Notes: generated from the letters alone by a model not told the origin. A stretch of 64,000 nucleotides of DNA from Ectothiorhodospiraceae bacterium (GCA_002401775.2 NVUB02000027.1:11249-75248), one strand, 5' to 3'; positions 2,878 to 63,592 are shown, counted from the first letter of the stretch. A program made the numbers and translations.

Positions 2878-2896
2878 CCACTTTCCAGCTTTTTCC

Positions 2897-2938
2897 AACA
2901 AACAAAAACGACACCTTCGGGTGTCGTTTTTGTTTGTT
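2897..2938 (+). terminator. rho-independent terminator after pilQ
   Basis: Perfect 19-bp stem aacaaacaaaaacgacacc / ggtgtcgtttttgtttgtt with loop ttcg. The right arm is T-rich. Confidence 0.8.
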
Positions 2939-3121
2939 GCTCTATAATTGCCATGAGTGCATTGTCATCAGTACATTGTCACCAGTGCAATGCCATTTAC
3001 ACACCACCCTTCCCACACCATCAACCATAAATCACAAACTGAAAACAAAAGTCACCTCGGAATTGGTCAATTCCACACCAAACCCGATATACTCCCCCCT
3101 AAACAAGAGCTTAGAGGTAAA

Positions 3122-3640
3122 ATGGCACAAAACATTATTTTTGTTGGGCCGATGGGTGCGGGTAAAACCACCATTGGCAAAGCACTCGCCAGCCAGCTGG
3201 GGAGAACCTTTTACGACAGCGACCGGGAAATCGAAGAGCGCACGGGCGCTAATATACCGCTAATATTTGAACTCGAAGGGGAAGAAGGTTTCCGGCGAAG
3301 AGAGCAAACGGCCATCGCTGAGCTGATGGCAAAAACCGATATCGTCCTCGCCACCGGCGGAGGGGCAGTGCTTGACCCGGAAAACCGAGACCATATCACC
3401 CGGCAGGGCTTTGTCATTTACCTCAACGCTCCCCTAGAGCAGCTGTTGAAACGCACGGCAAAAGACAAAAGCCGGCCTTTATTGCAGACCGCAGACCCAC
3501 GCAAAAAATTGCAAGATATCTTGACTATCCGTGACCCTCTGTACCGTGAGATCGCCGACGTGATTATTGAAACGGACGGAGGCCCCGCACGAACGGTCGT
3601 CAAAAACTTGCTGGCGTTAATTGCAGAGCGCGGACTATAA
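3122..3640 (+). CDS. aroK: shikimate kinase
   Basis: [20 protein letters not shown] Walker A motif at the N-terminus and about 172 aa, the typical AroK length. ATG 3122 is in frame with the longer ORF-track frame (2957), whose extension has no family resemblance. Confidence 0.95.
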
Positions 3641-30477: not shown

Positions 30478-31593
30478 TTATGGCAGAGTGTCGTAGGGGG
30501 TGACCGTTGGTTTATCCGCCGTAAGCAATCGGATCAGCTTCAGGTGTACAAAAAGCCTTTCTTTTCCCGCAGTAATTTCACGCAGTACGCCAATTTCAGT
30601 TAGCTGCTTTAGGTAGGCCGCCGCCGTTTGGCGTTTAGCAATGCCAGCTTCCACCAAATTGGCAATACGGCAATATGGTTGCTCAAAAATAAGCTGTGTC
30701 AGCTCATGGCTATAAATTTTTGGTAGGCGGTCGCGTATATGACTACTTGTAGTGGCAATCAATTCCCGAATAGCGGCAATCTTGGCAGTGGTCCACTGCG
30801 CAGTTTCGGCGACGGCCTGCAACATAAACAGCAGCCAGGGTTGCCAGTCATCATCGCGTGTCACTCCAGTTAACAATCGATAGTAATCAATTTTATGTTG
30901 CACGATGTAACGACTGAGATAGAGCACAGGTAAAGTCAGCAGGTCTTTTTCTATGAGGTAGAGAATATTAAGTACACGCCCAGTTCGGCCATTCCCATCT
31001 AGAAACGGATGGATAGCTTCAAACTGATAATGCGCCACCGCCATTACCACCAGCGGGTCAAGACTGGATTGTTCATCGTGAATAAACTTCTCCCAATTAC
31101 CCAGCAAATCACGTAATCGTCCCTCGCCATCCGGGGGGGTGTAGATAGTCTCGCCCGTTGCAGCATTAGCGATAGTCGTACCCGGTACTTTCCGAATATC
31201 CATATCCCGTCCCTTAATAGTGGAACAAATTGTGGTTGCAGTGGCCGTACACAATGGGCGCCGTCCCAGCGCCAGGTAGCCTTGATACAAGGCTGTACGA
31301 TATCGTAGAGCCTCTTTGGTGGGCATGTCCGCCTGAGCTTCCGCCTGAGCATATTGAAACAACCTGTCGGTGGTAGTGACAATATTCTCAATCTCAGAAC
31401 TGTCTTTTGCCTCAAGCATTGGCAGGCTATTGATCAGAATCGTTTGATTAGGCAAAAGCTCGGCAGCCTGCCGCAGTTCGGCCAGAGCAGCTCGTGCAGG
31501 AATACAGGCCTTAAGCACTTCACGAGACTCAAGATCAGAACGCGGAGGAATTTGCGGCAACTCGTTATAGGGAGCCCGAGGGTCAAAAGTCAT
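30478..31593 (-). CDS. Fic family protein (class II-type, with C-terminal wHTH)
   Basis: Fic motif HPFLDGNGRTGR. An N-terminal inhibitory-helix motif SSEIEN ([ST]xxxE[GN]) is present. The C-terminal part resembles a winged helix (RQTAAAYLKQLTEIGVLRE). Confidence 0.9.
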   Translation of the reverse strand: MTFDPRAPYNELPQIPPRSDLESREVLKACIPARAALAELRQAAELLPNQTILINSLPMLEAKDSSEIENIVTTTDRLFQYAQAEAQADMPTKEALRYRTALYQGYLALGRRPLCTATATTICSTIKGRDMDIRKVPGTTIANAATGETIYTPPDGEGRLRDLLGNWEKFIHDEQSSLDPLVVMAVAHYQFEAIHPFLDGNGRTGRVLNILYLIEKDLLTLPVLYLSRYIVQHKIDYYRLLTGVTRDDDWQPWLLFMLQAVAETAQWTTAKIAAIRELIATTSSHIRDRLPKIYSHELTQLIFEQPYCRIANLVEAGIAKRQTAAAYLKQLTEIGVLREITAGKERLFVHLKLIRLLTADKPTVTPYDTLP

Positions 31594-51858: not shown

Positions 51859-52360
51859 TACAAACGCTTAACACCCAACACAAAAAAACCCACCGTAGGG
51901 TGGACACGCTTCACAGTGCCCACGCGATTAAACCACCAAACTCACGCTGAATTCACGCTGAACTCGCCCCAAACTATTTCAGTAAACTTAACACACAAAA
52001 CAAAACCATCATTCACTCTTCCAACGAAAAACTATCCCTATACTCCACCAAAAAATAATCAGGCGTAGTGACCATCAGAGTCACCATCAGCTTCGCTTTA
52101 TTCATATCGACACGCGCAACCATTATCTCAATTGGCCCGTGAAAAAATAAACCGCCCGCAGACATCCTCTCATTCACATGCTCACCCAAACCAATTTGAA
52201 TCACCTGACCTGGCTGCCTGTCTGTCTACAAATACCCTTTTAACCCCCATCAACTCACTCCTTGTTGAAATCACACCTCAACCAACACTACGTAAAACAT
52301 AGTTCACAGCCAAGCCGAATCCTACGAAAATCGTAGTTTATCAAACAGTCGGACATTCGC

Positions 52361-52663
52361 ATGGCAATAGACTCACCCATAAAGATACGTCTCAAAGAAG
52401 CAAGACTGCGTGCAGGTTTAACCCAGGAAAAACTCGGTATTCTAGCGGGAATTGATGAAAACAATGCCAGCGCCAAGATGAATCAATACGAGAAAGGGAC
52501 CCACATTCCCAAATACCCTCGACTAAAAGACCTTGCTGACGCACTTGGCGTACCAAGCGCCTATTTTTATGCCGAAACGGACGAATTAGCCGAATTGATA
52601 TACTGTTATGGAAAGCTCAATAGTAAAGCTAAACAAAAACTTCTAAAGAACGCACAACCCTAA
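52361..52663 (+). CDS. XRE-family HTH transcriptional regulator
   Basis: IRLKEARLRAGLTQEKLGILAGIDENNASAKMNQYEKG HTH, 100 aa. Confidence 0.75.
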   Translation: MAIDSPIKIRLKEARLRAGLTQEKLGILAGIDENNASAKMNQYEKGTHIPKYPRLKDLADALGVPSAYFYAETDELAELIYCYGKLNSKAKQKLLKNAQP

Positions 52664-52945
52664 CCTAAAATATCATATACCCGTTCTGGAAAAAAGGTGC
52701 GTATTACTCAAAATAAGCATATGTATATACTGAACCCATGAACATTTAGATGTAGCTGCCACTTTTAATTATTTTTTCAGGCTGCTCACAAGCATCTGTA
52801 CAAGCGAGAATTAAAGAAAATTCCTATTGTCAGGTTATTAATAAAAGCATCAACCATCCGTCACTACAGCAGTATTTTCATATCGACATTTTACCGGAAA
52901 TATCCCCTCTTTTTATAACAGTAGACAACTTTACTGGAAGTGTGC

Positions 52946-53260
52946 TCAATTAACAAAGTTTGGAAAACAGGTAAAAATTATAAACAACTCCAACTCTCCA
53001 AAATGTATATTTTTTAAGATCTCAATAACTAATACTACACCAACCACTTTTGACTCGACATTCTTATACAAGCCCGAAGGCATTAATGGAGTAGCGAAGC
53101 TTAAAAAGGAAAAATCCAAATGGTATGCCAGCGAATCAAGAATAGTTGAAATGTGAGACAGGTATACTTTTTCAACAAAACTTATTTCACTTGTATGGGA
53201 TTGATAAATCCCCCAAAATTTACGTCCTGGTTTGATTTCGCCTTTAGGGATGGCAGGCAC
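52946..53260 (-). CDS. hypothetical protein (weak call)
   Basis: 104-aa ORF in AT-rich DNA. No family was recognised. Confidence 0.3.
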   Translation of the reverse strand: MPAIPKGEIKPGRKFWGIYQSHTSEISFVEKVYLSHISTILDSLAYHLDFSFLSFATPLMPSGLYKNVESKVVGVVLVIEILKNIHFGELELFIIFTCFPNFVN

Positions 53261-53313
53261 TATTCTAAGGCAATCATCTGGTTTTGGCCCTCCACGTAAT
53301 AAGGGTCTACTCT

Positions 53314-53664
53314 ATGAGAATCAACGATTTTATAATTTCCCTTTCAGTCCCGTTATTATGTATTTCACTAACAGCCTGCCAGATTGATGAACAAAAACCC
53401 TCATACACCACCATAAACAACACACTGAGTGATGGCGGCGAAACCATTACCTGGAAAGAAGGCCAAGGCTTGCTTAATATTAATAATATTCAACACAAAC
53501 TCAACGAAGAAGATAAGCTATTATTCTCAAAATCACTTGAATGGTTTGCCACAGAATCACATTTTAGTTTTGAAAAGCTGTCGGGGAAAACCGAAAAGCA
53601 AACTGTTGATATTATAAACTGCATAAAATTATCTAAGCCAAATATGCAGAAATCATGCTTTTAA
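53314..53664 (+). CDS. putative lipoprotein
   Basis: MRINDFIISLSVPLLCISLTAC with lipobox LTAC. 116 aa from ATG 53314. Confidence 0.55.
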   Translation: MRINDFIISLSVPLLCISLTACQIDEQKPSYTTINNTLSDGGETITWKEGQGLLNINNIQHKLNEEDKLLFSKSLEWFATESHFSFEKLSGKTEKQTVDIINCIKLSKPNMQKSCF

Positions 53665-53778
53665 AGAGTGCAGCCAACTTAGCATTAAAAACATAAACAA
53701 CCCTAAGTCGTGACAATATCACAAAAATTTATATAACTATCCAGACTCGTTCGATTGATATTAAACGGTTATATCGCT

Positions 53779-54999
53779 TCATCCCAGCAGCTTTAATGCA
53801 CGGCGAAACGGTTGAGTTAGTTTTTTGGGGTGGGTTTTAGTCAATGATACCGAGTCACAATTTTGAAAATAACAGAATTGTTTGATAGCTTCTACAAATG
53901 CAGTAGTAACTAACTCTTGATCAAAGCTGTGTTGTTCAAAATGCAAATATTTTATCTCTAATTGGTTGGTTTTTCGATGGGCTTTACAGTCCATCCGCCC
54001 AATAAATTCATCGCCGTAAAGTAACGGTAGGCAAAAGTAACCATACTCACGTTTGGCGGCAGGCACATAACACTCTAATTGGTAACCGTATTGAAACAGT
54101 GCCTTGAGGCGTTCGCGCTGAATGACGCTGTTGTCGAAGGGTGAAAGAATCAATATGCGTTTTTTTAACCGAGGAAGAGGGCGTTCGAGAGCATCCGATT
54201 CCACTAAAAATACTTCACCACTGCTCATTTGCACTTGTTCTAAAGTGCGCTGCGCCAACTTTTCGCTTATTAAGGCTTTCACCGCTTTACGTAGTTCAAC
54301 ATTTCGGCGCTGGTAAGTCAGCCCTTTGAGAGAAGCAATCCCGTGACAGCGCAACTGTTGATCTACAATGTGCGCCGCAAACGCTTCCATGCTGGGCATT
54401 CGTGAATTTACCGAGTCAGGCAATACCCGCTCCGTTAGATCATATGTTTTTTGGAAACCTTCGCGGTCGCTGACCATTATGTCACCTTGCATATACAGCT
54501 GTTCGAGAGCCTTTTTGGCGGGTTTCCAGTCCCACCAGCCTGCACGTTTTGTACTGTTAGATTCGACATCGCGGGATCGTAACGGGCCATCTGAACGTAT
54601 ACGGGCCAATAATTCACTCATGAGTTTCATATCACGGTCTTTATACCAATGAGTTTGCCCGCTTTTAATAGCATGTTTGTAGGGTAGGGAGAAACGAAAA
54701 TCTGCGATAGGCAGAAAAGCTGCCGCATGTGTCCAATACTCGAAAATATCTCCATCGAGTAACATTTGATTTGTCATGGCTGGTTTGAAATTAGGTACTC
54801 TTGAGTAAAAAACATGATGGTGTGCTCGCTCCACCACCGATAAGGTATCGATCTGAACATAACCTATGTGGTTAATAGCGTTACGGGCCCCTACCAAACC
54901 GCACCCATAAGGTTTCGCCTGAAGCAAACCTTGCGCAGCCAGAGCAAGGCGGCGTAATCGTACTCGTTCTTGTGGTCGTTTAATTTCAATCATGGTCAT
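53779..54999 (-). CDS. YcaQ/AlkZ-like winged-helix DNA glycosylase family protein
   Basis: IGYVQIDTLSVVERAHHHVFYSRVPNF...FEYWTHAAAFLP resembles the remembered YcaQ (DUF1006) signature. 406 aa. Confidence 0.85.
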   Translation of the reverse strand: MTMIEIKRPQERVRLRRLALAAQGLLQAKPYGCGLVGARNAINHIGYVQIDTLSVVERAHHHVFYSRVPNFKPAMTNQMLLDGDIFEYWTHAAAFLPIADFRFSLPYKHAIKSGQTHWYKDRDMKLMSELLARIRSDGPLRSRDVESNSTKRAGWWDWKPAKKALEQLYMQGDIMVSDREGFQKTYDLTERVLPDSVNSRMPSMEAFAAHIVDQQLRCHGIASLKGLTYQRRNVELRKAVKALISEKLAQRTLEQVQMSSGEVFLVESDALERPLPRLKKRILILSPFDNSVIQRERLKALFQYGYQLECYVPAAKREYGYFCLPLLYGDEFIGRMDCKAHRKTNQLEIKYLHFEQHSFDQELVTTAFVEAIKQFCYFQNCDSVSLTKTHPKKLTQPFRRALKLLG

Positions 55000-55813
55000 A
55001 CTTGCCTAACATTGAGTTCAGCAGACTGGAATTTACGTGGTTTTTGCTGCGTTACAGAGAATCACCACCAAAACACTGTAATATTCGAGCCTGCGTATAA
55101 CATTTTTTATTTTACGAAATATAACTGTTTTTACATCCAGCTACAAATAAAATAAAAATAGCGGCGATGAACATCTACATGCTTGTAATATCAAGCATGT
55201 AGATCGCTCACGGGTTGTGAGGCCAGATATTCGAGACAATGAGCGTGTTTAATGAGTATTTCAACGGATTTTTACCCATACTTCTGAGAAACCTCGAAAA
55301 AACAACACGATAGCCTAAAGTGGAACCCACCTATTCTCAATCTCCTAATAAAATACTAGGAGTTCCCACGCGAACTTGCCGGGTATTCGTCATATGTGTT
55401 GACAATCCAGCCTATACAGATACACCCAGGCACAAGCAACGTGCTCCTACCAAGCCGACTTTAAGACAATAACTTATAGAATCCGGATTCAGCTTCAGTC
55501 ACTTTTATGAGTAAGAGTGACCGCAACCCTAAAATCACAGTTGCTCCACGGGGTATTGGCAGGAGCCTCAGACGGCTAATGAAAGCACTCAATAGGTTCT
55601 CGAGGGTATACCGACAGGAGCTGCCGGCGAGATCACCAAAAAAGATGATAGCGAGTAAAAAAATGGTACGAAGTTTTATTTCACCTCGGGAAAAAGTCGA
55701 GACTCATCATTGAACTGGGAAGTTTGAAATGAGCGTAGTGGGCGGTTATTCCAGTGGTGACTAAAGTGTGCATTGTTCAAGCTGGCAATGTGCACAACGA
55801 TTAAACAACGTTG

Positions 55814-55921
55814 TCACGGATTCGAAGAGCCCAGCACCATACAAGCAATCGGGACACCACTAACCTTACAAGCGACAAGACATGCCACGAGCGTACTAAT
55901 GATAAGCGCACAGAATGACAT
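55814..55921 (-). CDS. possible 35-aa hydrophobic peptide (below ORF-track cutoff)
   Basis: GGGAGGGATT-ATG then MSFCALIISTLVACLVACKVSGVPIACMVLGSSNP*. There is a strong SD at correct spacing, and the ORF is followed by short palindromes. It is supported by the SD and hydrophobicity only. Confidence 0.3.
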   Translation of the reverse strand: MSFCALIISTLVACLVACKVSGVPIACMVLGSSNP

Positions 55922-56142
55922 AATCCCTCCCACCCACAATCTCACCTCCATTCCCATTGGTAGTATCAATGTATTGATATCATAAACTGATGCTATATCA
56001 ATAGCTCAATCAACTCTAACAACCAATCAATCATCGAACATCCCAACATACTACACACACGAACATTACTTATAAAGGGCTCTGACCCCTTATATACACA
56101 CGTTCACACGCGGGTGCGTGGGAACGAGACATCAGCTTGCCT

Positions 56143-56760
56143 TCACTTTTTGTCTTCCATGTCTTCGGTTTTATAAAGGGTATAGCCTTCATAGTAATAG
56201 CTGGCATCAATACCTTTCATATAGATGGCACTGTCATGGATTTTTTCTGTTAAGGCTTGTTTGAGTAACACCTTAATTTCAACATCTTTAACGGGGCTGC
56301 GTTCCATTGCCAGCAGGTAGTTATCTTTATCGACACTACTCCAATCCACTACTCGGTGCAGTTGGTGTTTTAAGAGGAGATCCAGCCATATGCGTGTGCT
56401 TCGTCCATTGCCTTCTCGAAAGGGGTGGGCAATGTTCATTTCTACATACTTTTCGATAATTTCATCAAAGCTCGATTGCGGCATGGCTTCTATATGGTCT
56501 AGAGCAGCTTTTAGATACATTACGGGTGCAAATCTGAAATTTCCCTTTGCGATATTCACGCTGCGAAGTTTGCCTGCAAAGTCATAAATATCACTAAAAA
56601 GAAACTGGTGAATATCTGCCAATGCCTGAAAACTGCCTGCCTTGAGGCTATCAAAAAAACCGCTACTAAACAGCTGATGCGCTTTGGCTTTGCTGAGCTT
56701 TTCTTCAACTCTTGCCAGTTCAACCGCATCGGTGATGTTTAACTTATTCTCTAAGGTCAT
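56143..56760 (-). CDS. fic: Fic family protein (class III-type, about 200 aa)
   Basis: Fic motif HPFREGNGRSTR and a C-terminal inhibitory motif SYYYEG ([ST]xxxE[GN]). The size and layout resemble single-domain Fic proteins. Confidence 0.9.
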   Translation of the reverse strand: MTLENKLNITDAVELARVEEKLSKAKAHQLFSSGFFDSLKAGSFQALADIHQFLFSDIYDFAGKLRSVNIAKGNFRFAPVMYLKAALDHIEAMPQSSFDEIIEKYVEMNIAHPFREGNGRSTRIWLDLLLKHQLHRVVDWSSVDKDNYLLAMERSPVKDVEIKVLLKQALTEKIHDSAIYMKGIDASYYYEGYTLYKTEDMEDKK

Positions 56761-56896
56761 CCGTGCATTTCCTCTACGTTAGACAAACATCTTTGCAAGC
56801 AGGCTTGTTTGGTCTGTTTTCTCATGTCTCATTCCCACGCGGGAGTGTGGGAATGAGACATGGATCACCATTGTGCACAAAACAGCCAGCAACACT

Positions 56897-57061
56897 CTTC
56901 ATTTGAGTTTTTCCTTCAATTACACCGTACTGGGTGGTATGTGCAAATTTTGCACTAACGACGTCTTCCGTTAGTTCGACTTCGTTAAAAGTATTGCGGA
57001 TATGCGTTATGATGTCCGTTCTATCTCGCTGAAACAGTTCTGCTATTTGTTCCGTAGATAA
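56897..57061 (-). pseudogene. fragment resembling the N-terminus of a RhuM-type protein
   Basis: LSTEQIAELFQRDRTDIITHIRNTFNEVELTEDVVSAKFAHTTQ... is preceded by stop codons. The frame then runs into a REP hairpin. The resemblance to the WLxxxQIAxLFxxxxxxIxxHIxNIFxExEL pattern is from memory. Confidence 0.4.
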
Positions 57062-57099
57062 CTATTAAACCGGACACCCATATTTATAAATGTACTATA

Positions 57100-57162
57100 A
57101 TTTAACTACAAACCATCTGTGCCACTACAGTCGCGAAGGTCGATGCCTGGCCTTGTTAAGTG
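57100..57162 (-). other. attC site of cassette 5
   Basis: The minus strand reads CACTTAAC...GTTAAAT. The inverse core matches RYYYAAC and the core matches GTTRRRY. CACTTAAC is the exact complement of the first bases of cassette 5 (G|TTAAGTG). Confidence 0.7.
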
Positions 57163-57174
57163 TGGACGGCTTAT

Positions 57175-57594
57175 TCATTTTGCAGCTGATAGTTTTGAAT
57201 CAACACTACCTATAAAATCACTACACAACGTACACTCGCGCCCCGGACAATTGGATATTTGCAATCTATAGACGGAAGCATCTAGTTGTACAATTTGAAG
57301 TAAAAACTTCATTGGTGACCCTGCGACATAATGCTTGCTAATAAGATCCTTTGAGTCCTTAGTATCCAACCCTCCATACATCGAGTTTTTTTCAGCGAAG
57401 TCTCGCACTCTGTTGAAAAATGTTAAAGCCTCTGTTCCCGCCAACTTATAGTCCTTCTGGAATGAGTAGATAAAATCAGCAGGCTTTTCTCCATTTGGAC
57501 CTAGAAAATATTCTTTGTGGTTTTTTTCTTCACTACAACCAGCACACAGTAAGACTGTAAAAATTAAGAAATATATTAGCTTGCCATAATACAT
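57175..57594 (-). CDS. cassette 5 ORF: putative lipoprotein
   Basis: MYYGKLIYFLIFTVLLCAGC lipobox. AT-rich. Confidence 0.6.
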   Translation of the reverse strand: MYYGKLIYFLIFTVLLCAGCSEEKNHKEYFLGPNGEKPADFIYSFQKDYKLAGTEALTFFNRVRDFAEKNSMYGGLDTKDSKDLISKHYVAGSPMKFLLQIVQLDASVYRLQISNCPGRECTLCSDFIGSVDSKLSAAK

Positions 57595-57619
57595 CTTTCT
57601 AGATCCCACTGGTGTTGTC

Positions 57620-57677
57620 ACTTAACGTTCACTTCACTCGCGCGCTTTTCAGCGTCGAGTGGAAGTGTTGGTTATGC
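57620..57677 (-). other. attC site of cassette 4
   Basis: The minus strand reads GCATAAC caa CACTTC(C)ACTCG ...loop... CGAGTGAAGTG aac GTTAAGT. It is 58 bp long, and its stem has one extrahelical C. Confidence 0.65.
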
Positions 57678-57695
57678 GTAATTCCGCAAAATCTG

Positions 57696-58262
57696 TTAAA
57701 AGTTCCACCCTAATATAACTCCTATACCAGCATGAATATTCGACTTTGTATTATCATTTAAGAAATTAACAACATCATTGCTTTCATTTTGTACAATATT
57801 TTCTTTTGAGCTATTTTTTATCAAAAATGCAGGCCCCCCTAAAACTGACACATTAAATCCATTACTCCAAAACCACTGATATCCGAAACTAGATACTATA
57901 TCTATAAAGGTAACTCTTGCTTCAGAACCTAATTCAGTCTTAAATTTAGATTTTTCTACCCCTATTAATAGCTGCATTATGAAGCTATCTTTAAATACAC
58001 CACTTTTGGAATATCTCCAAGGAACAAAAAAACGGCTAAATGTGTTTTTCACATTATCATTAGAACTACCGAAAGATGGGCGATCCGATTTACATTCATT
58101 CCGTGCAAGTACACCTAACGTACTATTCTCTGATACAGCCATTTCGAAACCCATTTGATGGCATTTATATGGATCTGGGAGAATAATCAGATTAACGAAA
58201 TCTTTCGAATAACATATGTCTGAAAGAAAAAAAAGAAAGCTTATTAAGAACAACCTACTCAT
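57696..58262 (-). CDS. cassette 4 ORF: exported protein, probable small beta-barrel
   Basis: Signal peptide MSRLFLISFLFFLSDICYS. The C-terminus ...GVILGWNF ends in Phe. Confidence 0.6.
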   Translation of the reverse strand: MSRLFLISFLFFLSDICYSKDFVNLIILPDPYKCHQMGFEMAVSENSTLGVLARNECKSDRPSFGSSNDNVKNTFSRFFVPWRYSKSGVFKDSFIMQLLIGVEKSKFKTELGSEARVTFIDIVSSFGYQWFWSNGFNVSVLGGPAFLIKNSSKENIVQNESNDVVNFLNDNTKSNIHAGIGVILGWNF

Positions 58263-58347
58263 AAAACACTAACATAATGTAATATCATAAATCACCTCTC
58301 TGATTTTCTGCATTAAGTTCAACATACTATCCGTTACTATCATGACG

Positions 58348-58420
58348 CTCTAACGCTTTAATAACCTGGCGTTTTTTCTTGCGGCAGCTTTATGCCGTAA
58401 AAAAATGATCAGCGTTAATT
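58348..58420 (-). other. attC site of cassette 3
   Basis: The minus strand reads (TA)AATTAACGC...internal hairpin cggca taaagc tgccg...GCGTTAGAG. It overlaps the ORF stop codon. Core complementarity is weaker than in the other sites. Confidence 0.5.
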
Positions 58421-58788
58421 TACTTGTTAGCAAAATTTCTAGTTTGAAGTATATTTCTATTACAGTAATTCGCATTTTCAAATTCTATAATATTAGCACC
58501 TATATTAGGAACAGTAGGTAATATTGAAGTTAATTCTTGTACTATTTTCTTAGTTAAATTCGCTTTTTGCTCATTGCTTCTACCTTCCATTATATTTGAA
58601 AATACATGGATAAAATCTTCTATTTTATTTCCCGTTGAATATTTTTTAAACGAATTAACTCTTACTTTTATATCATTTTCATTAAACAGTTCAGTTGATT
58701 TAGCAGCAAAGTGAACTTGCTCAATTATTTGTTCTTCAGATTGCAATCTAAATATACTTTCAGAGCAATCTATTAAAAAATGAGGCAT
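58420..58788 (-). CDS. cassette 3 ORF: 5-carboxymethyl-2-hydroxymuconate isomerase-like (tautomerase superfamily)
   Basis: MPHFLIDCSESI N-terminus (catalytic Pro1 after Met) and about 120 aa, typical of the CHMI family. SD AGGAG. Confidence 0.7.
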   Translation of the reverse strand: MPHFLIDCSESIFRLQSEEQIIEQVHFAAKSTELFNENDIKVRVNSFKKYSTGNKIEDFIHVFSNIMEGRSNEQKANLTKKIVQELTSILPTVPNIGANIIEFENANYCNRNILQTRNFANK

Positions 58789-58814
58789 AGTTTCTCCTGT
58801 GCTTATTCTTCTAC

Positions 58815-58896
58815 TGCTAACGCCTAATTAAGTGGCCGCAGCGAAGCGGAGGTCTAAGCGCGCTTTTTGCGTGTGCATTAATATCTTGTTAGAGGC
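58815..58896 (-). other. attC site of cassette 2
   Basis: The minus strand reads GCCTCTAAC aagat ATTAA ... TTAAT taggc GTTAGCA, the canonical R''-spacer-L''/L'-spacer-R' layout. CCTCTAAC is the exact complement of the start of cassette 2 (G|TTAGAGG). Confidence 0.75.
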
Positions 58897-58899
58897 TTG

Positions 58900-59205
58900 T
58901 TAATCACAGCACGCCTCTGTTTTATTGCACAGATTACCATGTGCGACTTGTCTATATATTGTATATGGCAAGACAATTGTGTCAGCTATAAAGCTGAATG
59001 GCATATCTAATATTGTTAAGCCTTCATCTGTATATTTCTTTCCCATTAAAAAGCGATAGTCATTAGCTACGCCTGAATAAGCTCTTGGTATTTTAAAAGG
59101 TGGGTCACATTTAAAATTATCTTCATTCGCTGATAATGTAGCAACAGTAGAGCAGCCTTGAAGTAACAATTGCAATGCTAATATAAATATTATAATTCTT
59201 GTCAT
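58900..59205 (-). CDS. cassette 2 ORF: YceK/YidQ-like lipoprotein
   Basis: Lipobox LLQGC. YSGVANDY and LDMPFSFIADTIVLPYTIY resemble the YceK/YidQ (DUF1375) pattern. Confidence 0.65.
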   Translation of the reverse strand: MTRIIIFILALQLLLQGCSTVATLSANEDNFKCDPPFKIPRAYSGVANDYRFLMGKKYTDEGLTILDMPFSFIADTIVLPYTIYRQVAHGNLCNKTEACCD

Positions 59206-59222
59206 TGCTAGTTTTTATGCAC

Positions 59223-59268
59223 CTCTAACGTTTAAAAATACGTCCGTGTTAATTTTTTTGTTAGGTGC
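59223..59268 (-). other. attC site of cassette 1
   Basis: The minus strand reads GCACCTAAC aaaaaaattaacacggacgtatttttaaac GTTAG(A)GGTGC. The outer stem is 9 bp with one bulged A. The inverse core ACCTAAC matches RYYYAAC. Confidence 0.65.
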
Positions 59269-59357
59269 TCGGTGCATAATGCACTTCACTTTCTATCGGC
59301 ATTACCGGAGCTAGACCCCATAGGGCTGACATTTCTACACCATCAACGATTTTTCCA

Positions 59358-59723
59358 TCAATTTTCGATACTACGTATAATTGCATGGGTACCTTTAGTT
59401 ATATTTATAATTACTGGATATCCTGAGTTTATACATTTATATTTTATTTCGCTAATTTTATCACAAGCTGCTTCAAATTTACTTACATCATTTTTCTTAA
59501 AATAAAAATCAACAAATATGCTAGGCACATCTACTCTATGACGCTCGTTGATGTTGTGGGCTGATTCAGGAATAAAACTAGGAACCCATCCTTTGCCAAT
59601 TAACTCCGATTTTCTTACAGCCTCATAATTTATAAAATAATTTGATTTTTTTTCACTTTGTAACATCAACACAATTGTTGCAACTGCAAATATGGATACC
59701 ATTATGATTGCGACACTTTTCAT
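59358..59723 (-). CDS. cassette 1 ORF: membrane-anchored hypothetical protein
   Basis: N-terminal TM MKSVAIIMVSIFAVATIVLML. 121 aa. No family was assigned. Confidence 0.55.
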   Translation of the reverse strand: MKSVAIIMVSIFAVATIVLMLQSEKKSNYFINYEAVRKSELIGKGWVPSFIPESAHNINERHRVDVPSIFVDFYFKKNDVSKFEAACDKISEIKYKCINSGYPVIINITKGTHAIIRSIEN

Positions 59724-59734
59724 TTACTCTTGGC

Positions 59735-59741
59735 ATCTAAC
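59735..59741 (-). other. attI-type recombination junction (core GTTAGAT) preceding cassette 1
   Basis: The minus strand has GTTAGAT, which matches GTTRRRY, 11 nt upstream of the cassette-1 ATG. TTAGATGC pairs with GCACCTAA of attC1 with one mismatch. Confidence 0.45.
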
Positions 59742-60052
59742 AGTTGTATATAACGCACGCTCGTTTACCCATTTTCAACACATCCCGAGTATCGCCATAA
59801 GCTAATGAATTTACTAGATTTTCACAATATAACGCATTTAAACGGTGTTGCAAAATGAGCGTGCCTCATATCCCCCCATTTATGGTCGCAGTATACACCG
59901 ACCGAATTATCACAACCCATTGTTTTTGCTGTATTTGTTAAGACATCACAAGATAAAAATGCGCATCTTCAGGTTGCAAAACGAGAACATTTATTGGCTT
60001 CTCAAAAATACACTGTGGAAATGACCAGCAGTTAGCCGTCAAGGAGTCCATA

Positions 60053-60176
60053 GTGAAATATCCCTTTATTCAGTCTATTCGCGCTGACATTCGCCTTCGT
60101 GGGTATAGCATTCGGCGTACTACATTAAAAACAAGGAAAACAAACACCCATTTTACAGAAAGTGGTCAGCCTAAAT
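60053..60176 (+). pseudogene. intI: integron integrase (intI) N-terminal stump
   Basis: AAGGAG-N6-GTG then VKYPFIQSIRADIRLRGYSIR, which matches the remembered IntI N-terminus (PFLxSVxxxxRxRHYSxRTE). After a frameshift or deletion it reads AYYIKNKENKHP (compare AYxxWIxxxIxFHNKxHP), then stops. It is divergent from the cassette array. Confidence 0.6.
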
Positions 60177-60247
60177 TTTAATTGTGATTTACTGACATGG
60201 TACGAGTAAATTCCTAAAACTTAAACGCTGACACCATACTATACAAC

Positions 60248-60500
60248 ACGATAACCTAACAAATGGAGTCCAATTACTCTCAATTTACAGATATAAACCC
60301 AGGTATTTTCTGCTTAAATAAATCTGATATCCGTCTTACGTGTCGGCAGTTCAGCCTGGGCATATACAACGTACCCGCCCTCGCTAATTGAACTTAACAA
60401 CAACGATAACAACAACACAATAACCTAATATACAGTAGACACGATAACCTAAAAATAGTACAACCTAATAACCTAAATATAGGGAAACCGATTAACCTAA
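60248..60500 (+). repeat. six copies of AACCTAA (two as ACGATAACCTAA) upstream of the 516-aa Fic gene
   Basis: Copies start at 60253, 60422, 60446, 60462, 60470 and 60494. The last five lie within 80 bp of the ATG at 60509, with spacings of 24, 16, 8 and 24 nt. Confidence 0.7.
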
Positions 60501-60508
60501 TAACAGGG

Positions 60509-62059
60509 ATGATTATGGCTGCACCACCTGACAAGCTGGCACTCTCTTTGGAGGCATTAAAAACCCTACAGGATTATGGGCTTACTGCTATTCATACGAC
60601 GAAAATAACCCGCACTCACCGCGAACGGCTGCTTAAAAACGGGTTTATCAAGGAGGTGTTTAAGGGGTGGTATATTTCGTCTCGCCCTGACGAGCCGACA
60701 GGTGAAAGTACCGCCTGGTACGCCTCATTCTGGGGCTTTTGTGCTGATTATTTACATTCCCGCTTTGATGAGAGCTGGTGCCTTTGCCCTGAGCAGTCTC
60801 TTAGCATCCATACCGGTAATTGGAGCGTTCCCAAGCAATTGTTGGTACGCTCTCCACAAGGTGGCAATAAGCCTATATCCCTGCTCCACGAAACATCTAT
60901 TTTCGATGTCCGTCTGGCGCTGCCTGATCAACAAGACCTGACAACTATCGACGGTATTCAAATTTTAAGCCTTCCCGCAGCGTTGGTTACTTGCTCACCG
61001 CGACATTTTACTGCGCACCCTATTGAAACGCGCGCGGCATTGGCGATGATTTCCAATGCTTCTGACATTTTGCACCGATTATTACGCGGTGATCACAGTA
61101 AGGTGGCTGGCCGCCTAGCGGGCGCCTTCCGGAACATTGGTCGGGATTCTATTGCTGACAATATTGTTCAAACAATGAAGTCAGCTGGGTATGCCGTGTC
61201 GGAGAATGACCCCTTTCACGATAAGCCACCAATCCCACTTTCAACACGCGAAGTATCTCCTTACGTCAATCGACTACGGATGAGCTGGGCCGCTATGCGC
61301 GCGACTGTCATAAATCATTTTCCCTCTCCACCGTCCCAAAAAATTGATGCGCAAAGCTATCTCAAGCACGTTGATGATCTCTATGTTACCGATGCCTATC
61401 ATTCCTTATTTATCGAAGGCTATCAGGTGAGTGCTGAATTAATAGAGCGCGTACGCAGTGGCGATTGGAATCCGGATACAGATTCTGCTACTTCTCCTGA
61501 CATTGACCGTAACCACAAAGATGCATTGGCTGCGCGAGGATATTGGCAAGCATTCCAAGCGGTTAAAGAAAGCGTTATACAGGTACTCGGTGATAATCAG
61601 GAAGGGGCTGCTGGCAAGGTCGCCGAAAAAGATTATGAAAAATGGTACAGAGAATTATTTTCGCCAAGCGTGACAGCAGGTATTATTGATGCCACAGATT
61701 TAGCCGGTTACCGCAATCACCCTGTCTATATTCGTCACTCAAAGCACGCGCCGCCGAATTACCAGGCAGTGCGCGAGCTAATGCCCACTTTTTTTGATTT
61801 ATTACAAAATGAAAAAGACCCTGCTGTTAATATAGTGTTGGGACATTACTTTTTTGTTTATATCCATCCGTACATGGATGGCAATGGACGCATTGGGCGA
61901 TTTTTAATGAATGTCATGCTGGCAAGCGGCGGCTACCCTTGGACGGTTGTTCCCGTTGAGCAGCGCAGTGCTTATATGGCCGCTCTGGAAGAAGCCAGCG
62001 TTAACCACAACATTATTCCCTTCACTCAGTTTTTGGCGCAATTAGTTAAAACTGAATAA
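60509..62059 (+). CDS. large Fic-domain protein (516 aa) with about 250-aa N-terminal extension
   Basis: Fic motif HPYMDGNGRIGR and the upstream inhibitory motif SLFIEG. The N-terminal half is of unassigned family, possibly an AbiEi-like wHTH. Confidence 0.85.
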   Translation: MIMAAPPDKLALSLEALKTLQDYGLTAIHTTKITRTHRERLLKNGFIKEVFKGWYISSRPDEPTGESTAWYASFWGFCADYLHSRFDESWCLCPEQSLSIHTGNWSVPKQLLVRSPQGGNKPISLLHETSIFDVRLALPDQQDLTTIDGIQILSLPAALVTCSPRHFTAHPIETRAALAMISNASDILHRLLRGDHSKVAGRLAGAFRNIGRDSIADNIVQTMKSAGYAVSENDPFHDKPPIPLSTREVSPYVNRLRMSWAAMRATVINHFPSPPSQKIDAQSYLKHVDDLYVTDAYHSLFIEGYQVSAELIERVRSGDWNPDTDSATSPDIDRNHKDALAARGYWQAFQAVKESVIQVLGDNQEGAAGKVAEKDYEKWYRELFSPSVTAGIIDATDLAGYRNHPVYIRHSKHAPPNYQAVRELMPTFFDLLQNEKDPAVNIVLGHYFFVYIHPYMDGNGRIGRFLMNVMLASGGYPWTVVPVEQRSAYMAALEEASVNHNIIPFTQFLAQLVKTE

Positions 62060-62167
62060 AAGTGTAAATCCGTGCAAAAATTAATGCGCTCAAGGCGACA
62101 ATAATGTCCAATGGGTTTGTTAAAAATGTACACACGTTATTTAACGCTAACAAATGAAACAGTAAAT

Positions 62168-62623: not shown

Positions 62624-62892
62624 CCGTTTACTGACCAGTCGGGTCGCTGGCTGACACATATAAAGAAGTTGTCATAATGATGAATGGTTCAATCTGCGAT
62701 TCTTCATCACCGCCTACTACGTACGCTTTCGAGGGATTTACAATAAGACCTCTGCCTTTTATTTTTACGTCCTACCCATACCATCCATGCAACTTATTGA
62801 TAAATAGAAACAATCCATATTTTTCTTCCGCCCCACCTGTTCTAAAGTCCAACAATTCTTGACATATATTCCTTATCAGTTATATTCCTTAT

Positions 62893-63249
62893 ATGGAATG
62901 GGAAATCGAGTATACGGATGAATTCGAGGTATGGTGGAATAGTCTCAACGAGGCCGAGCAGGAGGATGTTGCGGCGGTAATTGGACTGCTAGCGCTAAAG
63001 GGCCCTCAGCTACCTTTTCCTCACAGCTCAGGCATTTCTAATTCCAGGCATAGCCATTTGCGTGAGTTACGCATTCAACATGCCGGAAAACCCTACCGTA
63101 CACTTTATGCTTTTGATCCTCGCCAGATGGCGATATTGCTGATTGGTGGCGATAAGACCGGCAATAGCCGATGGTACGATCAAAACATACCACTGGCTGA
63201 CAAGCTTTACGATGAGCACCTTGAAGAAATAGAGAACGAATTAACGTAG
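62893..63249 (+). CDS. type II toxin, RelE/HigB (Gp49-like) family
   Basis: 118 aa. LRELRIQHAGKPYRTLYAFDPRQMAILLIGGDK is typical. It is followed 10 nt later by an XRE antitoxin gene. Confidence 0.8.
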   Translation: MEWEIEYTDEFEVWWNSLNEAEQEDVAAVIGLLALKGPQLPFPHSSGISNSRHSHLRELRIQHAGKPYRTLYAFDPRQMAILLIGGDKTGNSRWYDQNIPLADKLYDEHLEEIENELT

Positions 63250-63259
63250 GAGAGTAGTA

Positions 63260-63592
63260 ATGGCCAAAAAATTCAGAGATTTACGGCAAACCATGAGTCC
63301 TGACGCTCAGGCACGCGCGCACGAAAAAACAATGGCAATGAAGACCGCTCTACCACTTGCGGAACTTCGTCAGGCTCGCCATTTCTCTCAAGTGCAGTTA
63401 GCTTCCGAGCTTGAAATTAAACAACCCGCTGTTGCCAAACTCGAAAAAAAAACGGACATGTATATTTCCACTTTACGCCGTTTTATTGAAGCAATGGGTG
63501 GGCAACTGGAAATTCGCGCACGTTTTGCCGAAGGCGATGTAGAAATAAATCAGTTTGAAGAGCTGGAAGATAAGCAACAATCGACCGGGTAA
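63260..63592 (+). CDS. XRE-family HTH antitoxin (HigA-like)
   Basis: LAELRQARHFSQVQLASELEIKQPAVAKLEKKTDMYISTLRRFIEAMGG HTH pattern. Confidence 0.85.
   Translation: MAKKFRDLRQTMSPDAQARAHEKTMAMKTALPLAELRQARHFSQVQLASELEIKQPAVAKLEKKTDMYISTLRRFIEAMGGQLEIRARFAEGDVEINQFEELEDKQQSTG

What the first reader, a model, noticed from the sequence alone, without database searches (positions are those of the whole stretch)
57100..59741. Five co-oriented integron gene cassettes with attC sites (a decayed chromosomal integron array)
Reading the minus strand from 59741 to 57100, five short ORFs point the same way. Each is followed by a 46-82 bp imperfect palindrome that begins with an inverse-core-like RYYYAAC and ends with a core-like GTTRRRY.

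The attC sites are:
- attC1: GCACCTAAC...GTTAGAG
- attC2: GCCTCTAAC...GTTAGCA
- attC3: AATTAAC...GTTAGAG
- attC4: GCATAAC...GTTAAGT
- attC5: CACTTAAC...GTTAAAT

Integron recombination cuts at G|TT. The bases after each G therefore belong to the next cassette and should pair with that cassette's own inverse core. This is observed:
- Cassette 2 starts TTAGAGG and ends CCTCTAAC.
- Cassette 5 starts TTAAGTG and ends CACTTAAC.
- Cassette 1 starts TTAGATGC (after GTTAGAT at 59741-59735) and ends GCACCTAAC, with one mismatch.
- Cassettes 3 and 4 show only 4-5 bp of such pairing.

attC2 has the canonical R''-5 nt-L'' / L'-5 nt-R' layout, and attC4 has a stem with an extrahelical base. Cassette lengths are 408-728 bp and the DNA is visibly AT-rich. 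I could not define further cassettes below 57100.
Basis: partly seen in the sequence, partly recalled or inferred. Interest (0 to 1): 0.8.

Follow-up and report, generated by a model that had tools for sequence, protein, structure and literature searches.

The report
Integrase-less integron cassette array (CALIN)
This is a short row of five captured integron gene cassettes with no integrase gene nearby, a common and well-described kind of element. Only one of the five recombination sites is still fully intact.

Summary
Window 59741-57100 (minus strand) carries five co-oriented small ORFs in an AT-rich stretch (33-37% GC against about 48%).

- **Cassette 4.** Its attC (57677-57620) is the only attC-model hit in the whole 64-kb window (27.2 bits, then 34.2 bits, E about 1e-6). 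Homologs of its ORF sit between attC sites in dense arrays in many metagenome contigs and share its GCATAAC inverse core.
- **Cassette 5.** A homolog (74% aa) lies in an integron with a degraded intI. Homology to the window starts exactly at the G|TT crossover.
- **Cassettes 2, 3 and 5.** Each starts with 7-8 nt that are perfectly complementary to its own inverse core (shuffle P 0.002-0.005; combined P 8e-6). Cassette 1 has 9 of 10.
- **Weak sites.** attC1, attC2 and attC3 score only 7-9 bits, which is noise level. attC5 keeps only its 5' part.
- **Correction.** The inverse core of attC3 is TGCTAAC (58432-58426), not AATTAAC.
- **Context.** No intI gene or remnant was found in the 64 kb. The array lies in a 10-kb island that the nearest syntenic relative lacks, and it is identical in all contigs recovered from at least ten samples.

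Verdict: an ordinary, static, partly decayed CALIN. It is a new member of a known kind and of modest interest.

The parts
59735..59741 (-). Upstream boundary core GTTAGAT. The crossover G is at 59741, and cassette 1 begins with the TT that follows.
   Evidence: Read directly from the sequence. GTTAGATGC matches the reverse complement of the cassette 1 inverse core (GTTAGGTGC) at 9 of 10 positions. No attC was detected upstream of it.
59229..59740 (-). Cassette 1 (512 bp). ORF1 is 59723-59358 (121 aa, N-terminal hydrophobic segment). attC1 is 59266-59223, a 44-nt mini-hairpin.
   Evidence: ORF. The precomputed annotation lists PF26610 YbbD_head, but my own hmmscan found nothing. attC1 fold z = -2.65, L box 7/9, covariance model only 7.2-8.3 bits. 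It is shorter than any of the 19 real attC sites I collected (57-127 nt).
58821..59228 (-). Cassette 2 (408 bp). ORF2 is 59205-58900 (101 aa, DUF1375/YceK-like lipoprotein with a lipobox LQGC). attC2 is 58894-58815.
   Evidence: Pfam DUF1375, E 4.8e-7. The cassette starts GTTAGAGG and ends CCTCTAAC, an 8/8 complement (P = 0.002). Spacing is R''-5 nt-L''/L'-5 nt-R', but only about 6 L-box pairs form. Fold z = +1.37. Model score 6.9 bits, with an alternative R'' at 58905.
58354..58820 (-). Cassette 3 (467 bp). ORF3 is 58788-58420 (122 aa, CHMI/tautomerase-like). attC3, re-registered, is 58432-58348.
   Evidence: Pfam CHMI, E 3.6e-9. R'' TGCTAAC overlaps the last codons of the ORF. It is 7/7 complementary to the cassette start GTTAGCA (P = 0.005). 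The L box is AAT[T]AAC/GTTATT with one extrahelical T (sequence). The site folds end to end as one hairpin with z = -1.64, like a genuine AT-rich attC in L149 (z = -1.76). Model score 8.6 bits.
57626..58353 (-). Cassette 4 (728 bp). ORF4 is 58262-57696 (188 aa, signal peptide plus a probable 8-stranded outer-membrane beta-barrel). attC4 is 57677-57620 and is the one intact, canonical attC.
   Evidence: attC4 scores 27.2 bits (E 4e-4) as the only hit in the window, and 34.2 bits (E 1.3e-6) with the second model. L box 9/9 with one extrahelical base. Fold z = -3.24. ORF4 homologs are flanked by attC sites in L128, L136, L116, L140, L111 and L121 and share R'' GCATAAC. The structure model has pLDDT 89.7, and its best matches are Ail, CarO, OmpA and NspA barrels. 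The 5' junction reads GTTAGAG rather than the family's GTTATGC.
57100..57625 (-). Cassette 5. ORF5 is 57594-57175 (139 aa lipoprotein with a lipobox CAGC). Of attC5, only R'' CACTTAAC plus the spacer (about 57163-57150) is recognisable. The rest, down to 57100, is not attC-like.
   Evidence: A homolog with 74% aa identity lies in integron loci L149-L157. In the DNA alignment, homology starts exactly at G|TTAAGT and stops about 12 nt after R''. Start and R'' are 8/8 complementary (P = 0.002). Fold z = +0.61. No model hit.
59742..60508 (.). A 767-nt non-coding leader between the divergent Fic gene (60509-62059, + strand) and cassette 1. No intI and no recognisable attI. It contains 17-mer repeats and one promoter-like site facing the array.
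   Evidence: No ORF of 60 aa or more. tblastn with IntI1 was negative. Repeats TTAGGYTATCGTGTTGT are at 60243-60476. A promoter-like site TTGCAA-16-TATATT is at 59853-59826 on the minus strand, though the overall number of such sites is not above chance.
56825..57061 (-). A start-less 79-codon frame directly after the array. It is probably the 5'-truncated remnant of a gene's DNA-binding module and marks the distal breakpoint of the array.
   Evidence: Six-frame fragments. The only similarity is a weak Rha-like HTH match, E 0.007, below the Pfam cut-off. Its resemblance to RhuM/Fic N-termini rests on my memory only.

Best explanation
The region is a cluster of integron gene cassettes lacking an integron integrase (a CALIN). 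Five promoterless, co-oriented cassettes were each once a circular ORF-plus-attC unit. An integron integrase inserted them by recombination at the G|TT of the core site.

**Shown**
- Cassettes 4 and 5 belong to families that occur as cassettes in other integron arrays, with the same boundaries.
- attC4 is a canonical attC: R''-spacer-L'' with one extrahelical base, then L'-spacer-R'.
- Cassettes 1, 2, 3 and 5 begin with bases complementary to their own inverse core. That is the footprint of G|TT crossover.

**Inferred**
- The array is now inert in cis. There is no intI or attI within 64 kb.
- attC1, attC2 and attC3 are weakened (short, or poorly paired L boxes).
- attC5 has lost its 3' arm at a breakpoint that also truncates the next gene.
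- The 5' junction of cassette 4 no longer matches its inverse core.
- If an IntI were supplied in trans, the folded bottom strand of attC4, and possibly of attC3, would be the only good substrates. Cassette 4 is therefore the most likely unit still able to be excised.
- Expression would have to come from read-through from the 767-nt leader or from internal promoters.
- Four of the five products are envelope or secreted proteins: two lipoproteins, one small outer-membrane barrel and one protein with a signal or transmembrane segment.
For: - **attC model.** Covariance models were built only from class 1 integron attC sites. attC4 is the single hit in the window (27.2 bits; 34.2 bits, E 1.3e-6).
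- **Model validation.** The same model finds 13-15 same-strand attC sites in L128 and L136, at 26-48 bits, around ORF4 homologs. It scores held-out real sites dfrA15, dfrA1 and catB6 at 22.3, 13.1 and 10.0 bits.
- **Cassette 4 family.** ORF4-family cassettes in at least six arrays start G|TTATGC and end GCATAAC. The window's attC4 has the same inverse core, and the stop-to-attC spacing is 19 nt against 20 nt in L128 and L136.
- **Cassette 5 family.** The homolog sits beside an intI remnant that matches IntI1 residues 5-144 and 276-327. Homology to the window begins exactly at G|TTAAGT.
- **Crossover footprint.** Shuffle P values are 0.13, 0.002, 0.005, 0.35 and 0.002 for cassettes 1-5; combined P = 7.7e-6. 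In real arrays the same measure is 7-12 nt.
- **Clustering of weak hits.** Weak model hits fall on attC1, attC2 and attC3, on the correct strand. Five hits lie in 2.6 kb where 0.71 are expected (P = 8e-4).
- **Not terminators.** No T-tract terminators follow the ORFs.
- **Foreign DNA.** Low GC, and the array lies in an island absent from syntenic relative L012.
Against: - Only one of the five proposed attC sites passes an attC model. attC1, attC2 and attC3 score 6.9-8.6 bits, no better than about 10 unrelated noise hits in the same search.
- attC2 and attC5 fold no better than shuffled sequence.
- Cassette 4, which has the best attC, lacks complementarity between its start and its inverse core: GTTAGAG against the expected GTTATGC.
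- attC1 is 44 nt, shorter than any real attC I collected.
- Homologs of ORF3 on Vibrio and Pseudoalteromonas plasmids are not in obvious arrays.
- No comparative data could be obtained for cassettes 1-3.
- My models are proxies. The IntegronFinder model itself was not run.
Confidence: 0.8

Rival explanations
1. Only cassettes 4 and 5 derive from an integron, for example by insertion at a secondary genomic site. ORF1, ORF2 and ORF3 are ordinary small genes of an AT-rich genomic island. Their TAAC/GTTA motifs would then be chance products of AT-rich sequence.
For: attC1, attC2 and attC3 score at noise level. attC2 does not fold better than shuffles. There are 148 TAAC...GTTA pairs in the window, counting both orientations. 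ORF3 homologs occur outside obvious arrays. ORF2 belongs to a family (DUF1375/YceK) that, from my own knowledge, is also an ordinary chromosomal gene.
Against: Cassettes 2 and 3 show exact start-to-inverse-core complementarity of 8 and 7 nt. The shuffle P values are 0.002 and 0.005, and the cognate pairing is the best in the all-against-all matrix. attC1, attC2 and attC3 share the layout TAAC-5 nt-(A)ATTAA. All sites lie in the short gaps after the ORFs, on one strand. A genuine attC in integron locus L149 also scores only 7.8 bits with z = -1.76, so low scores do not exclude real AT-rich attC sites.
Confidence: 0.13
2. The array is not dead. It is a satellite array of a functional integron whose intI lies elsewhere in the same genome, and its cassettes are still exchanged in trans.
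For: About half of CALINs are in replicons or genomes that encode IntI (PMC4889954, read). attC4 is intact. The window covers only 64 kb of the genome.
Against: The array is identical in every contig recovered from at least ten metagenome samples. The only differences are one 15-nt in-frame deletion plus one SNP in ORF5, and changes outside the array. There is no cassette gain, loss or reordering. Four of the five sites are structurally poor.
Confidence: 0.2
3. The palindromes are not recombination sites at all. They would be transcription terminators, REP-like elements or chance inverted repeats following small genes.
For: Each lies just after a stop codon, as a terminator would. Two of the five are not significant hairpins.
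Against: No stem-plus-T-tract terminator lies on the minus strand. There is no Rfam hit. attC4 matches an attC model at E about 1e-6. Terminators and REPs do not explain the complementarity between cassette start and end. They also do not explain homology to cassettes in other integrons that starts exactly at G|TT.
Confidence: 0.02

Closest known systems
[quoted passage not shown] 2016, PMC4889954; IntegronFinder)
   Same: Several co-oriented cassettes with attC sites on one strand, less than 4 kb apart. No intI nearby and no recognisable intI pseudogene, as for 95% of CALINs. It is small, as 83% of CALINs have fewer than six attC sites. The cassettes have unknown function and are not resistance genes.
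   Different: Only one attC passes my proxy model. A strict run might therefore report a single site (SALIN) unless the local, more sensitive search recovers the others. The distal attC is truncated.
Sedentary chromosomal integrons of Gammaproteobacteria (for example Vibrio superintegrons) and the environmental arrays L128 and L136 found here
   Same: Promoterless, co-oriented small ORFs, each followed by an attC. The ORF4-family cassette, with the same GCATAAC/GTTATGC R box, is present in those arrays.
   Different: Those arrays have many (13 or more) near-identical 59-65-nt attC sites, apart from one 81-nt site, scoring 26-48 bits. The window has five heterogeneous, mostly weak sites, no intI/attI platform, and lies in a 10-kb island that a syntenic relative lacks.
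The degenerate integron in Tara Oceans and other marine contigs L149-L157 (internally deleted intI plus array)
   Same: It contains the cassette 5 homolog with the same G|TTAAGT start. It is another example of an integron in decay.
   Different: It still has an intI remnant and complete attC sites around the cassette. The window has neither.
Off-site (attG) cassette insertion, SALINs and small CALINs (bioRxiv 10.1101/2022.09.11.507474)
   Same: Cassettes found away from any integron platform, inside or beside disrupted genes. That paper proposes such a route for small CALINs.
   Different: That route has been shown for single cassettes. A five-cassette block would need a multi-cassette circle or repeated events. 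No target-site evidence was obtained here.

Membership tests
CALIN (IntegronFinder definition) | At least two attC sites, detected by the attC covariance model, on the same strand and less than 4 kb apart | tested here: inconclusive
   I used proxy models built from class 1 attC sites. One site is significant: attC4 at 27.2 and 34.2 bits. attC3, attC1 and attC2 score 8.6, 7.2 and 6.9 bits, at the predicted coordinates and strand but at noise level. attC5 gives no hit. The proxy also scores some real held-out or AT-rich attC sites at only 7.8-13 bits. The original IntegronFinder model was not available.
CALIN (IntegronFinder definition) | No integron integrase gene close to the cluster | tested here: met
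   tblastn with IntI1 against the whole 64-kb window gives a best E of 3. Pfam scans of 20 ORFs, including the candidate-sized ones of about 300-370 aa, show no tyrosine recombinase.
Integron gene cassette / attC site | attC architecture: R''-spacer-L''...L'-spacer-R', folding as an imperfect hairpin with extrahelical base(s) on the L'' side | tested here: inconclusive
   Met for attC4: 9/9 L-box pairs plus one extrahelical base, z = -3.24. Roughly met for the re-registered attC3: AAT[T]AAC/GTTATT, z = -1.64. Partly met for attC2. Not met for attC1 (44 nt, no canonical L box) or attC5 (no L').
Integron gene cassette / attC site | Crossover footprint: the bases after G|TT at the cassette start are complementary to that cassette's own inverse core | tested here: met
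   c2 8/8, c3 7/7, c5 8/8, c1 9/10, c4 only 4. Shuffle P values are 0.002, 0.005, 0.002, 0.13 and 0.35, with Fisher P = 7.7e-6. Positive control: real arrays show 7-12 nt for most adjacent pairs.
Integron gene cassette / attC site | The same cassette occurs in other arrays, with homology bounded by the recombination points (evidence of mobility) | tested here: met
   Met for cassette 4 (ORF4 homologs between attC sites in six or more arrays, same R box). Met for cassette 5 (homology with L149 starts at G|TTAAGT).
Complete integron (intI + attI + Pc + cassettes) | An intI gene divergent from the array, with attI at the first cassette junction | tested here: not met
   The gene divergent from the array is a 516-aa Fic-domain protein. 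No IntI similarity exists anywhere in the window. The 767-nt leader has no recognisable attI, but attI sites are not conserved, so this part cannot be tested by sequence.
Active (currently recombining) array | Cassette gain, loss or reordering between closely related genomes | tested here: not met
   All contigs from at least ten samples carry the same five cassettes in the same order, at 99.6-100% identity.

The most novel reading that the evidence does not exclude
The five-cassette block did not decay in place from an integron. Instead it was delivered as one multi-cassette circle, or by successive events, by a trans-acting integrase into a non-att genomic site (attG type) inside a Fic/HTH toxin-like locus. 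This truncated that gene and left a hybrid, non-functional distal attC. That would be a natural example of a CALIN arising by off-site insertion.
Probability: 0.12. Interest if true: 0.5.

Novelty: new member of a known kind. Interest (0 to 1): 0.3.

Why it matters
CALINs are common. One survey found 2961 of them in 21,105 complete genomes (bioRxiv 10.1101/2022.09.11.507474). This element is therefore not surprising.

Its modest value is threefold:
- It documents a cassette reservoir in an uncultured sulfur-oxidiser-like gammaproteobacterium. The nearest syntenic relative is a MAG labelled Ectothiorhodospiraceae.
- It shows stages of attC decay side by side: one intact site, three weakened sites and one truncated site.
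- It identifies a previously unnamed small outer-membrane beta-barrel family as a widely travelled integron cassette with a conserved GCATAAC/GTTATGC R box.

It also illustrates that attC models trained on clinical integrons score AT-rich genuine attC sites near noise. In such cases the crossover footprint is the more useful evidence.

Tried and rejected
1. I first read the different gene calls in L001-L010 (152 against 188 aa; DUF1375 ORF missing) as cassette polymorphism. DNA alignment showed the loci are 99.6-100% identical, so the differences are gene-calling artefacts.
2. A strict RYYYAAC...GTTRRRY scan finds only the attC5 pair in the array and seven unrelated pairs elsewhere. It is too strict to be useful.
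3. Rfam gave nothing relevant, and no tRNA genes were found.
4. It missed 7 real attC sites in its own source loci and scored attC4 at only 12.2 bits.
5. Model R2 with filters off could not return hits longer than about 60 nt. I rebuilt it as R3 from a model-guided full-length alignment.
6. The first four ORF4-homolog contexts (L103-L108) were ambiguous, with only two attC hits, both in L105. The metagenome scan resolved this.
7. The model hit at 62847-62885 (+ strand) is in the higBA promoter/operator region and is not an attC.
8. The search for an intI pseudogene was negative, both by tblastn with IntI1 and by six-frame fragments of the non-coding stretches.
9. tblastn of ORF1, ORF2, ORF4 and ORF5 against plasmids found no match. 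ORF3 homologs on Vibrio and Pseudoalteromonas plasmids are not in evident arrays.
10. None of the island genes is present in the 80 yaiI loci from other species.
11. A possible sixth site upstream of 59741 could not be supported. It is an inverted repeat, 59748-59766 with 59853-59871. Its fold z is -1.06, it gives no model hit, and it has no TAAC inverse core.


Full report
**What is in the sequence**

Read on the minus strand from 59741 to 57100, there are five co-oriented ORFs:
- ORF1, 59723-59358
- ORF2, 59205-58900
- ORF3, 58788-58420
- ORF4, 58262-57696
- ORF5, 57594-57175

GC content here is 0.33-0.37, against about 0.48 for most of the window. Pfam identifies ORF2 as a DUF1375/YceK-like lipoprotein and ORF3 as a CHMI/tautomerase-like protein. 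ORF2 and ORF5 carry lipoboxes, and ORF1 and ORF4 have N-terminal hydrophobic segments (read from the translations).

**Are the inter-ORF palindromes attC sites?**

I separated sequence motif, structure and an independent model.

- *Motif.* Only the attC5 pair meets the strict RYYYAAC/GTTRRRY consensus. The other sites share only TAAC...GTTA.
- *Bottom-strand DNA folds*. attC4 gives z = -3.24 (0 of 200 shuffles as good), attC1 z = -2.65 and attC3 z = -1.67. attC2 (+1.37) and attC5 (+0.61) are no better than shuffled sequence.
- *Real attC set.* I recalled the class 1 attI1 region from memory. It matched at least 5000 plasmid records at 100% identity. From 12 fetched arrays I extracted 19 authentic attC sites.
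- *Register test.* This counts L''/L' pairs with one extrahelical base. The real sites score 7-9 of 9. In the window, attC4 scores 9, attC1 scores 7 and the others 5-6. That is the background level for all 148 TAAC...GTTA pairs in the window.

**Covariance models**

Model R2 was built from 16 class 1 attC ends with the canonical structure. It has exactly one hit in the 64-kb window: 57677-57620 on the minus strand, which is attC4, at 27.2 bits and E 4e-4.

Model R3 was rebuilt from a model-guided full-length alignment. It scores attC4 at 34.2 bits, E 1.3e-6. It recovers held-out real sites dfrA15, dfrA1 and catB6 at 22.3, 13.1 and 10.0 bits.

attC3, attC1 and attC2 appear at 8.6, 7.2 and 6.9 bits, at the predicted ends and on the predicted strand. 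About ten unrelated hits score in the same range. Five hits in this 2.6-kb strand, where 0.71 are expected, gives P = 8e-4. attC5 is not found.

The model places the inverse core of attC3 at TGCTAAC (58432-58426), overlapping the last codons of ORF3. With this register the L box is AAT[T]AAC/GTTATT, with one extrahelical T. The 85-nt site folds end to end as one hairpin with z = -1.64. A genuine attC in an integron locus (L149 5433-5518) folds no better (z = -1.76) and scores only 7.8 bits. Weak scores therefore do not exclude real AT-rich attC sites.

**Crossover footprint**

Integron recombination cuts at G|TT, so a cassette's first bases should pair with its own inverse core. The exact complementarity found is:

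| Cassette | Complementarity | Shuffle P |
|---|---|---|
| 1 | 5 nt exact (9 of 10 with one mismatch) | 0.13 |
| 2 | 8 nt | 0.002 |
| 3 | 7 nt | 0.005 |
| 4 | 4 nt | 0.35 |
| 5 | 8 nt | 0.002 |

The cognate pair is the best in the all-against-all matrix for cassettes 2, 3 and 5. The Fisher combined P is 7.7e-6. As a positive control, adjacent cassettes in the real arrays found below show 7-12 nt.

**Comparative evidence for cassette 4**

ORF4 has 23 homologs at 41-64% identity. A metagenome scan with their alignment returned 40 loci. R3 finds dense same-strand attC arrays around the homologs. L136 has 15 sites and L128 has 13, and there are further sites in L116, L111, L121, L117 and L140, at 26-48 bits. 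Examples of the layout:
- L128: attC 411-473, ORF 515-1069, attC 1089-1151.
- L136: attC 2429-2509, ORF 2551-3123, attC 3143-3205.

In L128, L136, L140, L116, L111 and L121 these cassettes start G|TTATGC. In L128, L136, L140, L116, L111 and L121 they also end with the inverse core GCATAAC. The window's attC4 has the same GCATAAC. It starts 19 nt after the stop codon, against 20 nt in L128 and L136. Cassette 4 is therefore a bona fide, widely travelled cassette.

Its 5' junction in the window reads GTTAGAG, not GTTATGC, so that junction is non-canonical. A structure model of ORF4 (pLDDT 89.7) is a small beta-barrel. Its best, weak, matches are Ail, CarO, the OmpA transmembrane domain and NspA.

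**Comparative evidence for cassette 5**

A homolog of ORF5 at 74% identity (P0027) lies in marine contigs L149-L157, next to a divergent gene with an integrase N-terminal domain. That gene matches IntI1 residues 5-144 (41-42% identity, E 1e-26 to 2e-27) and 276-327, so it is an internally deleted intI. An attC at 27.6 bits precedes the homolog and a weak one follows it.

In the DNA alignment, similarity between the window and L149 begins exactly at G|TTAAGT. It runs through the ORF, the inverse core and the spacer, and stops near window 57150. Downstream, L149 has a proper L' and R', and the window has neither. attC5 is therefore truncated or replaced.

Directly after it comes a start-less 79-codon frame (57061-56825) with weak HTH similarity. 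This is consistent with a breakpoint at the end of the array.

**Context**

No integron integrase or remnant exists in the window. tblastn with IntI1 gives a best E of 3, and Pfam scans of candidate ORFs show no tyrosine recombinase. The divergent neighbour is a 516-aa Fic protein, separated from the array by a 767-nt non-coding leader.

The nearest syntenic relative is L012, a MAG labelled uncultured Ectothiorhodospiraceae, with 74-83% nt identity in the flanking genes. It has mdh-dsbH-erpA-ATP-grasp followed directly by yaiI and deaD. Window 51860-62110 is therefore a 10.25-kb island, and higBA (62893-63592) is a second insertion.

The array is identical in every contig recovered from at least ten samples. 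The only differences are a 15-nt in-frame deletion plus one SNP in ORF5 in one contig, and changes outside the array. There is thus no sign of ongoing cassette exchange. No T-tract terminators follow the ORFs, and there are no Rfam hits.

**Interpretation**

The best reading is an integrase-less cassette array (CALIN): five cassettes, one intact attC, three weakened and one truncated, currently static (confidence about 0.8).

The main rival is that only cassettes 4 and 5 are integron-derived (about 0.13). The significant footprints of cassettes 2 and 3 argue against it. A reading as terminators, REP elements or chance is effectively excluded.

I cannot decide whether the block decayed in place, was moved by rearrangement, or arrived by off-site insertion as in bioRxiv 10.1101/2022.09.11.507474.

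**Novelty**

CALINs are abundant and well described (PMC4889954; 2961 in 21,105 genomes). This is a new member of a known kind and of modest interest.

Noticed in passing
window 51860-62110, compared with L012 8787-8831: The array lies in a 10.25-kb island that the nearest syntenic relative lacks. There the ATP-grasp gene and yaiI are only 44 nt apart. Besides the array, the island holds an HTH gene, two small ORFs, an AlkZ-like glycosylase, 1.1 kb of non-coding DNA and two Fic genes.
   Followed up: partly
window 62893-63592: The higB/higA-like toxin-antitoxin pair (Gp49 plus HTH_37) is a second, separate insertion between yaiI and deaD. It is absent from L012. It is not bounded by attC sites: the weak model hit at 62847-62885 is its promoter/operator region.
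   Followed up: partly
window 55302-55341 and 55479-55681, against 60243-60284 and 61468-61660: The 1.1-kb non-coding stretch below Fic205 contains a decayed, internally deleted duplicate of the Fic516 upstream region and gene (79% and 66% identity, same orientation). Remnant and intact copies of one locus therefore bracket the array plus Fic205.
   Followed up: partly
window 55302-55318, 60243-60259, 60412-60428, 60436-60452, 60460-60476 (minus strand): A 17-mer, TTAGGYTATCGTGTTGT, occurs five times where 0.23 are expected. Four copies cluster just upstream of the Fic516 gene and one lies at the decayed copy. It may be an operator or iteron-like repeat.
   Followed up: no
window 56116-56132 (-), 56824-56840 (+), 56845-56861 (-): 17-nt inverted repeats, ATGTCTCRTTCCCACGC, bracket the 205-aa Fic gene (56143-56760). 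On one side they form a perfect 16-nt palindrome (56823-56862). This looks like the ends of a small mobile module or a REP-like element.
   Followed up: no
window 30478-31593, 56143-56760, 60509-62059: The 64-kb window holds three Fic/DOC-domain genes of different architectures: SoFic-like (371 aa), a short 205-aa form and a 516-aa form.
   Followed up: no
window 57696-58262; loci L109-L148: The ORF4 family has no Pfam match. It has a signal peptide, a C-terminal GWxF and a confident 8-stranded beta-barrel model. It is a recurrent integron cassette with a conserved GCATAAC/GTTATGC R box, while the body of its attC differs from array to array.
   Followed up: yes
L149 2732-3259 (also L150-L152): A marine (Tara Oceans and JGI) integron whose intI keeps only the parts matching IntI1 residues 5-144 and 276-327. 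The catalytic middle is deleted, yet a cassette array with good attC sites follows.
   Followed up: partly
L117 1116-1400: Directly after an attC (ending GTTAGAG at 1116) comes GC-rich, structured-looking sequence, unlike a normal cassette start. It may be a group II intron of the kind known to target attC sites. Not tested.
   Followed up: no
window 56098: A 15-nt tandem duplication polymorphism (TGTATATAAGGGGTC) separates the window from several metagenome contigs of the same strain. It is the main difference across 5.6 kb.
   Followed up: no
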